A DNA stretch of 39,721 nucleotides from Gammaproteobacteria bacterium (GTDB taxonomy: Bacteria > Pseudomonadota > Gammaproteobacteria > UBA9339). The notes below the pieces were generated by a model. It ran no database searches. It saw nothing but the letters and a program-made list of their open reading frames with translations, and was not told where the DNA came from. The position numbers and the translations under genes are program-made. The stretch is taken from positions 1 to 39,721 of the forward strand of contig JAVBML010000043.1 in the NCBI GenBank assembly GCA_031552655.1, given 5' to 3'. Position 1 is the first letter of the stretch. Every line of letters starts with the position of its first letter. Below are positions 37,601 through 39,721 of the stretch, in pieces.

Positions 37601-37959
37601 TGCTGCATTTTTTGAAGTTATTTCGGCATGGGGATATGCCCTTGGCTATCCAAATAATGGAGTTATTTTATCAGATGCGCCAATCTTTGACACGGGAAGT
37701 TAGTGTTTTGCTGGGGGATACCCTAATTAAGCTATTTCCTCATTTTCGTGGATTACAGCGATTAAAGGTGGAGGGTATTTTAAAGGGAATTGAGCTAAGT
37801 GAAAAGCAACGAAGGAATCTTGATCTGCAGAGGGAGATGGCAAAATGGCATGATGCAAACGACGGGGAGCAAAAGAGAGAGATCATGGCAAAGTTGCATA
37901 CTTTAGGGAAGGGTTATGCTAGGTGGGAATTACAGCTACTTCTAAGACCGATTTTATAA
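34621..37959 (+). CDS. Large secreted/outer-membrane protein: signal peptide, inverse-autotransporter (intimin/invasin-type) beta-barrel, J domain, then about 620 aa of helical region
   Basis: aa 21-44 form a hydrophobic signal/TM segment (VVSLVLLNFIPWILFSAIASTVE). aa ~125-385 carry the IAT beta-domain motif chain: LLFTDMRIFDRRG..GNFHLGYRSM..MFGYYGSYD...H..NYRQLVVGAEYWQRRWYFGGNIY, ..GGIDGEVGYAFSEKLTGYVGGYYFHG, and the linker ERHMTELVRRDPDIVLEV. aa ~424-486 form a J domain (ATAEEVKKRYRELALRHHPDKGG) with HPD at nt 35986-35994. TAA stop at 37957-37959. Confidence 0.8.
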   Translation: MKEYSKNIPLVFDLLYHWRRSVVSLVLLNFIPWILFSAIASTVEITPAPGSKKERFNLPGLSIAKENYHNSLGVVTGKDVDHGDMVGGSATVAGDLSQPLLAKVNKYLPYMELGGQKHLNQPSNVAGVWDLFIPLLQKENKLLFTDMRIFDRRGGSLEGNFHLGYRSMLGEEKMFGYYGSYDLRRSNHGVNYRQLVVGAEYWQRRWYFGGNIYQPLGRKRAMIAKGLGSERKVGAITDNKIIVSQTTAKMENIQNSMAGEYGQYRYFENAVGGIDGEVGYAFSEKLTGYVGGYYFHGAMVGSLGGPRIRVSYDYRDCGRKKLLGILDRLGVELGGQHDQRRGFTGYAGLKLGIGLALKKDADLLSFERHMTELVRRDPDIVLEVSREAENFFPKGKISRYFFHETAGNGAERGEEVWRRKLWERELAELLRQFGLAANATAEEVKKRYRELALRHHPDKGGRKKDFIKFGQCRDRIDELFILLGYPASRTVRVFASENNDTAGWGTDGVFDNDFNFTESDAVDCFANGHGVVGDFGNSKLNQVIQILERKITVGPNVSSDQRQPLTNLAHLHTGEVLEKSSRSVNAGAKTNVTNGTYYGVNVAFAENHREKKAATAIKGLARIGNGFLRTFRYVDAWLHGMWRIFFPMALVDARELRNIPGEVDDGIINLTGRQFPRIADAALDSYLSTNLTLKDTVARKNYGEPLCLKREARKIGAIIGNFHRLCYVSHVLASLLVNLNHCAYQLTRKQVDVLDAAINDNNFNLNEQNFAVTLFANYTLKFNLVQSSLDFLLFWAKNNPNVADIFRVIIRGASRDSKAFLGIVNSLVTLLPRTQYPMELTMLLTQIHGFHNYCVTWQALPYFEILLKNTAVTGSTRRELLTLLGNSLEKILLSGDTEICLDRLAKSVTIFSQHLDDLPKNLIAAIFQIYGVQWRYFTEIVIDILLSDNGISPAILRLLIDARKPLIGVQNPRAALFIARCLVKNDLRLPTVTLLHFLKLFRHGDMPLAIQIMELFYQMRQSLTREVSVLLGDTLIKLFPHFRGLQRLKVEGILKGIELSEKQRRNLDLQREMAKWHDANDGEQKREIMAKLHTLGKGYARWELQLLLRPIL

Positions 37960-39721
37960 ACTCAAAACGTTCAATTTTTGAGAGCAGGGTATAAATTTCT
38001 AAAAAATTTAGCTGGACAGAAAAAGCTCTTTGCAAGCTTAGAAGAAGAGCGGGCATGGGGAGTTTTTTTAAGGGTTAGTCATGGGCGTTTATCTGGGCTA
38101 TTTAGGTATATCCATGGTGTGACTTCCTATTTAGTAGGTGGCCATGGAGAGATTTTACTAAATAATCACCAGAGTAGAGTGGTGCGCAAGTTAATCGCTG
38201 GAATAGGTTGGAATATTGCTTTCTATTTTCCACAGATTTCATTTGTTAGCTATTTTGAGCTACGGGAATTTTTGCGCTTTGCCTATGAAGTAAAGCTGTC
38301 TCGACGAATGTTGTCCCAGGTATTAGCTAGCAAAACTTCGCTGTGTGTGACCCAGTTGCATAGGGAGTTGCTGCAAAAGCTATTGGTGGATGTAGTGCCC
38401 CTGGCAACGGAGAAAGAGGATGCTGTGGGACAGTTAGTAGCGGAATTATTGGAAGAATCAGATTGGTCTTCAGATACGCTATTTAAATTTATTTCCGGAT
38501 CGACAAATGCTAGTGAATTTGATTCCAAAATACAGGTTTTGCATTTGTTGCATAACTACGGAAGTAAAATCAACCCTGAAACCATTGATAGAAGAGGTAG
38601 GACAGCCAGGGAGCTATTGGCATGGCGGCCTCGGGAGGTAATTCCCACTTTACTGCGTAGACTAATTGAAGACAATAGTTACTACGTTGCCATGGGCATC
38701 GAAACTATATTTGAGGAGCTAGGGCTTCGTAATCCAACCATTCCCCGGGCAAAACTTGCGTATCTATTTAATCAATTTACTCTCACATATAATAAAATGT
38801 TGGTTTTTAGAGAGGATTGGTACTGCGGACATAGCGACATAGAAATAGGTATGAATGGACTCATTGAGCAGGGGTATCTCTACTTCCATAAGCAAAATGT
38901 GCCAGTTTGTTTGGCCACCGTGGATAAAAAAGTGTGTAGAAAGTCAGGGAATAAAGCAGAGGATGGCAATGCTAATAGAACGGAATTGTGGAATTTAGCT
39001 GAGAATCTGGGGGAATCTAGGAAAATTATCCATGACCAAGCTATGCAATGGAACTTAGTACCTCGACCCAGGGGGATAGCTAAACCTTTGACCCTGTGGC
39101 ATGGTTCCGATGGGAAATGTTTGCTACGGTGTGAGCATTTTGTCGGGGATGAAAAAGATAGTTGGCAATATGAAATTTACCGAAGTCGCTGCAATGAAAA
39201 AAACGATTTTTTGAGGTGGTTTCAAAGCTATAGCTCTGAGCGCAAAGAAACCCGAGAGATTGGAAAGCTCACCATTGCTGCTAATTGGGCGGAAATTTTT
39301 GCTGTTATATCCCAAGCCATATTTGAAATTAAGGGGTTTTATCCTCGAATGGTGCAACTGCTAGCTTTGTTTTTGTCCCAGGAAATCGGTGATAATGTGG
39401 TAGTTCAAGTTGCCACGGGCGAAGGTAAAACTCTGGTTTTTTTTATGCAGGCGGTCATTAAAGCTTTGGAAGGCGAGGTTGTCAATTTTGTAACCAGTTC
39501 CCATGAATTAGCGACTCGCGATGCCATGGAATTAAAGCAGCTGTATAACCTCTTTGGTCTCACAGTGGGACATAACATTGCCCATGGACAGTCTCAAAGT
39601 GCTGGGAACCCCTATGGCTATGATATTTTGTATGGAACGGTGGCGAGTTTCATAGCTGATCTACTGAGAGACGATGGTGCTAGGGTTTGTCGAGAGAGGG
39701 CATTTAACTATGTTATGGTTG
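37960..39721 (+). CDS. Open frame continuing in the same frame after the TAA and running off the window; the C-terminal visible part is a SecA-like DEAD motor (NBD1) domain. Either a separate gene with an unresolved start or the distal part of a split giant gene.
   Basis: I translated frame 1 by hand from 37960 to 39720 and found no stop in 587 codons. The first in-frame ATG is at 38308; alternative starts are TTG 37978 and GTG 38119/38179/38182, none with a clear SD. The 3' part reads YPRMVQLLALFLSQEIGDNVVVQVATGEGKTLVFFMQAVIKALEGEVVNFVTSSHELATRDAMELKQLYNLFGLTVGHNI...YGYDILYGTVASFIADLLRDD. This is collinear with SecA NBD1 motifs (AEMxTGEGKTL, VTVNDYLAxRDA, LGLTVG, DITYGTNNEFGFDYLRDN). It is absent from the ORF track because it has no stop within the window. 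Confidence 0.65.

What the first reader, a model, noticed from the sequence alone, without database searches (positions are those of the whole stretch)
37900..38310. A single in-frame TAA separates the 1112-aa ORF from at least 587 further open codons in the same frame, with no credible start or RBS behind it
Seen in sequence: the ORF ends ...RWELQLLLRPIL-TAA at 37957-37959. Frame 1 then continues as TQNVQFLRAGYKFLKNLAGQKKLFASLEEERAWGV... without a stop to the window end. The first ATG is 116 codons later, at 38308, and the nearer TTG/GTG candidates lack Shine-Dalgarno sequences. In DNA this AT-rich, about 116 stop-free codons of non-coding sequence is very unlikely, so the stretch is or recently was translated. 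Inference gives three options. It may be one giant gene of more than 1,700 aa freshly split by a nonsense mutation. It may be a sequencing or assembly error. It may be a leaky or programmed readthrough producing short and long isoforms. Under the first or third option, the SecA-like motor belongs to the passenger of the J-domain inverse autotransporter.
Basis: partly seen in the sequence, partly recalled or inferred. Interest (0 to 1): 0.65.

Follow-up and report, generated by a model that had tools for sequence, protein, structure and literature searches.

The report
Premature stop splitting a giant gene
A single TAA stop codon cuts in two what is one giant surface-protein gene (2,400-3,530 codons) in every relative found; this is most likely a recent nonsense mutation, an ordinary event.

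Summary
TAA at 37957-37959 ends a 1112-codon ORF, and the same frame stays open for 587 more codons to the contig end.

Relatives settle what the two ORFs are. In an uncultured Coxiellaceae genome (L002), one 3530-aa ORF carries the inverse-autotransporter barrel, the J domain, the helical region and the SecA-like motor. It aligns with the window at 36% identity over 875 residues, straight across the stop with no gap. Six other relatives that cover this position are also continuous there, and none has a gene boundary at it.

The stop lies inside a conserved block. Family-invariant residues sit one residue before it and two after it, upstream of the only nearby start candidate (TTG 37978).

TAA is a normal terminator here: it ends nine other window ORFs, three of them conserved genes. 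No structure, terminator or tRNA lies near it. A second assembler gave the identical sequence from the same run, at a word depth of only about 7.

The distal part shows no decay. So the best reading is a young nonsense mutation in one giant gene. A tolerated split with re-initiation, an error or minority allele, and programmed readthrough are less likely.

The parts
34621..37956 (+). Proximal piece (ORF1, 1112 aa) of the giant gene. It holds an N-terminal hydrophobic segment, the inverse-autotransporter beta-barrel, the J domain, a variable region and the first part of an all-helical region.
   Evidence: ORF list and translation. Pfam IAT_beta and DnaJ. 36% identity over 504 aa to the N-terminus of the 3530-aa L002 protein.
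34999..35283 (+). Inverse-autotransporter beta-barrel match (ORF1 aa 127-221).
   Evidence: PF11924 scores 36.2 bits against a cut-off of 22.3, E 6.4e-9, profile positions 63-152 of 279. The same domain is found in L002, P0003 and P0006.
35920..36027 (+). J domain (ORF1 aa 434-469) with the HPD motif (LRHHPDKGG).
   Evidence: PF00226 scores 30.5 bits against a cut-off of 27.8. The HPD motif is read in the translation.
37930..38040 (+). Family-conserved block (...ELxxFxKxNLxxQNxEFLxIxKxAL...) that the stop interrupts.
   Evidence: Alignments. In the seven-sequence alignment A1 (the window and six relatives), columns L72 (last residue of ORF1) and Q75 (second residue after the stop) are invariant.
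37957..37959 (+). In-frame TAA, read here as a premature stop (nonsense codon 1113 of the giant gene).
   Evidence: Sequence. Relatives carry V, L, A, N or W at this column. A Logan contig of run X1 has the identical sequence. TAA ends nine other ORFs of the window, including hldE, rplS and rpsP.
37978..37980 (+). TTG, the nearest possible re-initiation codon, 18 nt after the stop and in the same frame. No Shine-Dalgarno sequence precedes it.
   Evidence: ORF list. Anti-SD duplex energy +1.2 kcal/mol. It lies downstream of the conserved TQN residues.
37960..39720 (+). Distal piece (587 open codons, cut by the contig end). It holds the rest of the helical region and the first part of the SecA-like ATPase.
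   Evidence: Translation. One HSP of 875 aa at 36% identity with L002 runs from ORF1 residue 838 through the stop to the contig end. 74% of family-conserved columns are kept.
39271..39678 (+). SecA-type DEAD motor domain, N-terminal part, with Walker A (VATGEGKT); distal piece aa 438-573.
   Evidence: PF07517 scores 92.7 bits against a cut-off of 24.6. PDB SecA chains match at E 2e-14. NCBIfam SecA and SecA2 models score far below their cut-offs.

Best explanation
ORF1 (34621-37959) and the open frame behind it are two pieces of one giant gene. Relatives of this gene encode a single 2,400-3,530-aa protein. Its parts, in order, are an N-terminal membrane or signal segment, an inverse-autotransporter beta-barrel, a J domain, a variable region, a long all-helical region, a SecA-like ATPase and a further C-terminal part.

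In this genome a single-base substitution turned codon 1113 into TAA. That column holds a hydrophobic or small residue in relatives and lies inside a conserved block.

Shown:
- Relatives are continuous across the site.
- The stop lies between family-invariant residues.
- TAA terminates other genes in this window.
- The stop is present in two assemblies of the run.
- The distal piece has no second lesion and keeps family-conserved residues as well as the proximal piece does.

Inferred:
- The mutation is young. Under neutrality, the chance of no further stop in the 587 codons falls below 5% at roughly 3% divergence.
- Ribosomes now release a 1112-aa product with the barrel, the J domain and part of the helical region.
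- The SecA-like part is made only by rare readthrough or by re-initiation at TTG 37978.
- Even if made, the SecA-like part would lack the N-terminal barrel that would carry it across the outer membrane. The gene is therefore functionally truncated.
For: - Exhaustive HMMER search of the junction region: 14 relatives. P0002, P0003, P0006 and P0009 each match in one stretch spanning the junction.
- MAFFT alignment: the stop falls inside the block ...FxKxNL[x]xQNxEL....
- L002 (uncultured Coxiellaceae MAG): one 3530-aa ORF with IAT_beta, DnaJ, SecA_DEAD and P-loop_SecA.
- L002 against the window: one 875-aa HSP at 36% identity across the stop with no gap there, plus an N-terminal HSP of 504 aa at 36%.
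- P0010, which seemed to start at the junction, is a TTG called inside a continuous homologous frame of a fragmented copy.
- TAA terminates hldE, rplS and rpsP, and nine other ORFs of the window in all.
- The Logan contig of run X1 is identical over 36500-39682.
- Family-conserved columns kept: 64% before the stop and 74% after it.
- Age bound.
- No RNA structure (z -0.33), terminator or notable promoter at the junction.
Against: - Only one sample holds the sequence. Word depth is about 6.7 and raw reads could not be seen, only contigs. A minority or intact allele in the population, or a rare consensus error, is not excluded.
- The distal frame is perfectly intact. That fits a tolerated split just as well as a young mutation.
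- All relatives are distant, 36% identity or less. No close relative exists in the collections searched. The age of the split could therefore not be dated by comparison.
- The rest of the gene and the rest of the genome could not be examined.
Confidence: 0.72

Rival explanations
1. Tolerated or functional gene fission. The stop is real, but the distal module is still made as a separate polypeptide by termination and re-initiation at TTG 37978 (or another nearby start). Both products are kept by selection.
For: - The distal piece is intact over 587 codons and keeps 74% of family-conserved columns.
- A TTG lies 18 nt behind the stop in the same frame.
- Genes of this window mostly do without Shine-Dalgarno sequences, so its absence is no obstacle.
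- Another lineage of the family (P0003, L003-L005) carries a different split, 2401 + 1013 aa. That split is identical on six contigs, and the three shown come from three samples, so split versions can persist.
- In the low-confidence model the stop lies in a turn between two helices, where confidence drops.
Against: - The stop sits inside a conserved block, and the invariant Q and conserved N just behind it would be left untranslated from TTG 37978.
- No relative has a boundary here.
- A distal product without the N-terminal barrel would have no evident route out of the cell.
- The intactness is equally explained by a young mutation.
Confidence: 0.13
2. Sequencing or assembly error, or a minority allele fixed in the consensus. 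The organism's gene is really uninterrupted.
For: Word depth is low, about 6.7. There is a single sample, and only contigs rather than reads were available. Contigs drop rare variants.
Against: - Two assemblies of the run (the window's contig and Logan's contig) agree base for base over 3.2 kb.
- A substitution error in an Illumina consensus at this depth is rare.
- The rest of the 39.7-kb contig is 93% covered by ORFs of 100 aa or more, and its six conserved genes checked match their family profiles end to end.
Confidence: 0.1
3. Programmed or leaky stop-codon readthrough, giving a short and a long isoform.
For: Only the same-frame arrangement and the intact distal frame.
Against: - In bacteria, UAA is read by both release factors and is the least leaky stop (established knowledge).
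- TAA is used as an ordinary terminator in this window.
- No relative has a stop at this column.
- There is no unusual downstream RNA structure.
- No suppressor tRNA is in the window. The rest of the genome could not be searched.
Confidence: 0.04

Closest known systems
Nonsense-split genes (young pseudogenes) in host-associated bacteria
   Same: A single in-frame stop lies inside a conserved block of a gene that relatives keep whole. The distal part is still open and undecayed. Other family members are also broken (L001 is fragmented; P0003 is frameshifted).
   Different: The surrounding 39.7 kb is compact (93% covered by ORFs of 100 aa or more) and shows no other obvious broken gene in the part examined. 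General genome decay is therefore not shown.
Inverse autotransporters (intimin/invasin family, Pfam PF11924)
   Same: An N-terminal hydrophobic segment is followed by a beta-barrel that matches PF11924 above the curated cut-off. The bulk of the protein lies C-terminal to the barrel.
   Different: Only about a third of the barrel profile is matched. The 'passenger' is not a chain of Ig-like or lectin domains. It is a J domain, a helical region and a SecA-like ATPase, followed in relatives by hydrophobic segments. Export was not tested.
SecA / SecA2 preprotein translocase ATPases
   Same: The DEAD-type motor domain is collinear with SecA NBD1 and includes Walker A (GEGKT). Relatives also match the second SecA P-loop domain.
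   Different: Scores are far below every NCBIfam SecA or SecA2 cut-off (81 against 862 bits). The domain sits at about residue 1550 of a giant multidomain protein, so this is not a SecA orthologue.
Programmed stop-codon readthrough and termination-reinitiation coupling
   Same: Two open frames in the same phase are separated by one stop, with a possible restart codon 18 nt downstream.
   Different: The stop is UAA. There is no conserved stop in relatives and no stimulatory structure. The restart codon lies behind conserved residues.

Membership tests
Premature stop inside a single ancestral gene | Relatives encode one continuous polypeptide across the site. | tested here: met
   L002 (875-aa HSP with no gap at the stop). 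P0002, P0003, P0006, P0007, P0009 and the L001 frame are all continuous.
Premature stop inside a single ancestral gene | The stop lies inside conserved sequence, not at a domain or gene boundary with a conserved start. | tested here: met
   Invariant L at -1 and Q at +2 (A1, seven sequences). Block alignment. The AF2 model places it in a turn between helices, but at low confidence.
Premature stop inside a single ancestral gene | The codon is a true terminator in this organism. | tested here: met
   TAA ends nine other ORFs of the window. hldE (profile matched 1-472 of 475), rplS and rpsP end on TAA.
Premature stop inside a single ancestral gene | The stop is present in the DNA and is not an artefact. 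| tested here: inconclusive
   An identical Logan contig comes from the same run, at word depth 6.7. No raw reads and no second sample were available.
Programmed stop-codon readthrough | The stop is conserved in relatives, sits in a leaky context and has a stimulatory signal. | tested here: not met
   Relatives have sense codons at this column. The stop is UAA-A. The fold z-score is -0.33.
Two independent genes (fission with own start) | A start codon with initiation signals lies just behind the stop, and the sequence between stop and start is not conserved as protein. | tested here: not met
   TTG 37978 has no SD. The six codons between stop and TTG include the conserved QN.
Inverse autotransporter (PF11924) | N-terminal beta-barrel matching the family profile above the curated cut-off. 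| tested here: met
   36.2 bits against 22.3, but only profile positions 63-152 of 279 are matched.
Inverse autotransporter (PF11924) | A C-terminal passenger is exported through the barrel and displayed on the cell surface. | not testable with these tools
   The domain order fits. Export is an inference.
SecA / SecA2 | The whole protein reaches the equivalog cut-off. | tested here: not met
   The best score is 81.2 bits against a cut-off of 862. Only the motor domain is matched. The window ends inside it.
J-domain proteins (PF00226) | J-domain profile match and the HPD motif. | tested here: met
   30.5 bits against 27.8. HHPDK is in the translation.

The most novel reading that the evidence does not exclude
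The split is not damage but a tolerated two-part version of the giant protein. The barrel/J-domain piece and the SecA-like piece would be made separately, the second by termination and re-initiation at TTG 37978, and would still work together. Recurrent splits at different places in this family (P0003: 2401 + 1013 aa, identical on six contigs) would then show that the giant is built of modules that can act in trans. Separately, the family itself appears undescribed in the literature searched. It is a 2,400-3,530-aa protein that joins an inverse-autotransporter barrel, a J domain and a SecA-like motor, found in Coxiellaceae-like bacteria.
Probability: 0.12. Interest if true: 0.5.

Novelty: new member of a known kind. 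Interest (0 to 1): 0.3.

Why it matters
For annotation, the two ORFs should be treated as one interrupted gene. The SecA-like motor belongs to the same protein as the barrel and the J domain, so it is not a stray SecA paralogue.

For biology, the stop itself is an ordinary event. Giant genes are large mutational targets, and other members of this family are broken too.

The more interesting by-product is the family. It is a giant protein of Coxiellaceae-like, probably host-associated bacteria that combines an outer-membrane barrel with two modules, a J domain and a SecA-like ATPase, that normally work inside a cytoplasm. I found no paper describing it in two full-text searches.

Tried and rejected
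I therefore could not recover the rest of the distal frame, count pseudogenes, look for suppressor tRNAs or paralogues, or place the organism.
- Exact look-up of ORF1 in the contig collection found nothing on record.
- A word-based homologue search of the junction found only the window's own protein. Its length filter (935-2975 aa) would have hidden longer relatives.
- Two metagenome-contig scans, one with an alignment and one with the single protein, found nothing.
- The seven-sequence alignment was too divergent for a genome-contig scan. A three-sequence alignment gave one locus.
- RNA runs from the same study hold no transcripts of this locus, only an 18-nt chance match.
- ORF1's C-terminal half and the distal N-terminal half are not repeats of each other.
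- The 5'-open ORF at the other contig end is unrelated to the giant protein.
- P0010, which seemed to start at the junction and so to support a natural boundary, was rejected after reading its locus. Its 'M' is a TTG inside a continuous homologous frame in a fragmented copy.
- The AlphaFold model (3-row alignment, mean pLDDT 58) is too weak to say whether the stop lies at a domain edge.
- The roughly 345-aa ORFs that follow the giants in L002 and L006 show no similarity to each other.
- Two literature searches found nothing on this architecture.
- Earlier notes of this scan held nothing on relatives.
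Full report
**1. The observation**

An ATG-initiated ORF runs from 34621 to 37959 and ends ...RWELQLLLRPIL followed by TAA at 37957-37959. 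The same frame then reads TQNVQFLRAGYKFLKNLAGQKK... and stays open for 587 codons up to base 39720. The window is a complete contig of 39,721 bases, so the second frame is cut by the contig end, not by a stop.

The first ATG behind the stop is at 38308, codon 117. With the window's composition a stop is expected at 6.2% of codons. So 116 open codons have a chance of 5.7e-4 and 587 open codons about 4e-17. A codon-usage score trained on 21 other ORFs of the window stays far above the two other frames right across the junction. The stretch behind the stop is therefore coding sequence.

TTG 37978 scores +1.2 kcal/mol and the others -2.4 to -4.3. But it does not discriminate. About three quarters of the ORF starts taken here (unverified, mostly longest-ORF starts), including ORF1's own ATG (-1.5), pair no better than the window's background mean of -2.5.

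**2. What the two frames encode**

- ORF1 matches the inverse-autotransporter beta-barrel (PF11924, aa 127-221, 36.2 bits against a cut-off of 22.3).
- ORF1 also matches a J domain (PF00226, aa 434-469), with the HPD motif.
- The distal frame matches the SecA DEAD-type motor at its aa 438-573 (PF07517, 92.7 bits), with Walker A VATGEGKT.
- Solved SecA structures match the same stretch at E 2e-14.
- Every NCBIfam SecA or SecA2 model scores far below its cut-off. This is a SecA-like motor, not a SecA.
- Upstream, on the other strand, lie rpsP, rimM, trmD, rplS, hldE and an MFS transporter.

**3. Relatives**

I ran an exhaustive HMMER search of 1.84 billion representative proteins. The query was the last 413 residues of ORF1 joined to the first 427 residues of the distal frame. 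It found only 14 relatives, at 23-34% identity.

- Four relatives (P0002 2468 aa, P0003 2401 aa, P0006 3149 aa, P0009 1029 aa) match in one stretch that spans the junction. P0007 does so as well in the alignment.
- P0003 and P0006 start with the same barrel as ORF1. P0003 also scores for the J domain, and both run on into the SecA-like motor.
- A scan of one genome per species found one locus, L002, in an uncultured Coxiellaceae MAG. It holds a single 3530-aa ORF with IAT_beta (121-214), DnaJ (444-495), SecA_DEAD (1599-2004) and P-loop_SecA.
- BLASTP of the window's read-through translation against L002 gives one HSP of 875 residues at 36% identity. It runs from ORF1 residue 838 to the contig end with no gap at the stop (window RPIL*TQN against SILVTQN). 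A second HSP of 504 residues at 36% covers the N-terminus.
- In the seven-sequence alignment (the window and six relatives), the residue before the stop (L) and the second residue after it (Q) are invariant. Relatives carry V, L, A, N or W at the stop's column. The stop is one base substitution away from a sense codon for a residue that relatives carry there.

One relative, P0010 (545 aa), seemed to begin nine residues before the junction, which could have meant a natural boundary. Its locus (L001) shows otherwise. The 'M' is a TTG called inside a frame that continues upstream with homologous sequence. The whole copy is broken into many pieces, as are neighbouring genes. No relative has a gene boundary at this position.

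**4. Is TAA a stop here, and is it real?**

- TAA ends nine other ORFs of the window. These include hldE, whose profile match reaches 472 of 475 positions, as well as rplS and rpsP. There is no sign of a changed code.
- No tRNA gene lies in the window.
- The RNA around the stop folds no better than shuffled sequence (z -0.33). No terminator or notable promoter lies there.
- One public run (invertebrate gut metagenome, DNA) holds the sequence. Logan's independent contig of that run is identical over 36500-39682, at a word depth of 6.7.
- This argues against an assembly artefact. It is not read-level evidence, and it comes from the same reads. RNA runs of the same study hold nothing from this locus.

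**5. State of the distal piece**

Among alignment columns where at least 80% of five or more relatives agree, the window keeps the family residue at 64% of 238 columns before the stop and at 74% of 97 columns after it. The distal piece has no second stop. 265 of its 5,283 possible single substitutions would create one, so under neutrality the chance of none falls to 17% at 2% divergence and to about 1% at 5%. Either the stop is very young or the distal part is still under selection.

An AlphaFold model of the junction region is all-helical (3-row alignment, mean pLDDT 58). It places the stop in a four-residue turn between two helices, with confidence dropping behind it. It is too weak to decide whether this is a domain edge.

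**6. Explanation**

The best-supported reading is a young nonsense mutation in a single giant gene.

- Ribosomes would end at codon 1113. The product would be a 1112-aa protein that keeps the barrel, the J domain and part of the helical region.
- The SecA-like part could be made only by rare readthrough or by re-initiation, for which TTG 37978, 18 nt downstream, is the nearest codon.
- Without the N-terminal barrel the SecA-like part would have no evident way out of the cell. These last steps are inference.

I put this reading at about 0.72. The rivals are:

- **Tolerated, functional split with re-initiation (0.13).** It is favoured by the intact distal frame. It is also favoured by a second, different split in the P0003 lineage: 2401 + 1013 aa, where the 1013-aa ORF matches L002 residues 2608-3233. 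That split is identical on six contigs, and the three shown come from three samples. It is disfavoured by the conserved residues left between the stop and the TTG.
- **Error or minority allele (0.10).**
- **Programmed readthrough (0.04).**

**7. Comparison with what is known, and novelty**

The event is a new instance of a well-known kind, a nonsense-interrupted gene. The protein family is unusual. It joins an inverse-autotransporter-type barrel to a 'passenger' made of a J domain, a helical region and a SecA-like ATPase. P0003 also has a Ulp1/C48 peptidase domain. Family members were found only in a Coxiellaceae MAG and in a few metagenome contigs, next to Fic and ankyrin-repeat genes in one case. 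Two full-text searches found no description of it.

The barrel, J-domain and SecA_DEAD profile matches are met. SecA orthology is not met. Export through the barrel could not be tested.

**8. Limits**

The rest of the gene, the genome-wide pseudogene load, suppressor tRNAs and the organism's identity were therefore out of reach.
- The organism is placed only loosely: gammaproteobacterial gene order, about 40% G+C, and the closest relative of the giant gene in Coxiellaceae.
- No close relative exists in any collection searched.

Noticed in passing
L003 12178-15219 (also L004, L005): In the P0003 lineage the same giant gene is split at a different place. The 2401-aa ORF is followed by an overlapping 1013-aa ORF in another frame that matches L002 protein residues 2608-3233 (30% identity, E 1e-89). 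The split is identical on six contigs; the three shown come from three ENA samples.
   Followed up: partly
L001 4229-10127: This copy of the giant gene is broken into at least seven called pieces, and the junction segment is tandemly duplicated in two frames. The neighbouring AprE-like genes are fragmented too, so this is either a noisy assembly or a decaying genome.
   Followed up: partly
P0003 aa 531-629 (L003 5001-12206): A Ulp1/C48 cysteine-peptidase domain (PF02902, 27.6 bits) is inserted between the J domain and the helical region of one family member. The window's protein has no such match.
   Followed up: no
L002 17212-18255; L006 14447-15478: In both loci the giant gene is followed by an ORF of about 345 aa that overlaps its stop by 4 nt. 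The two ORFs show no BLASTP similarity to each other.
   Followed up: yes
L006 3363-4499 and 16015-19182: The neighbours of the 3149-aa family member are a Fic-domain protein and a 1055-aa ankyrin-repeat protein. Such genes are common in bacteria that live inside eukaryotic cells.
   Followed up: no
window, all gene starts: About three quarters of the ORF starts taken in the window (unverified, mostly longest-ORF starts) have no detectable Shine-Dalgarno pairing; duplex energy with the anti-SD is no better than the background mean of -2.5 kcal/mol. Arguments from a missing RBS carry little weight in this genome.
   Followed up: partly
window 39682-39721: The window's contig and Logan's independent contig both end within 40 nt of each other, inside the SecA-like motor domain. 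This could mean a coverage gap or a repeat (paralogous motor domains) at that point.
   Followed up: no
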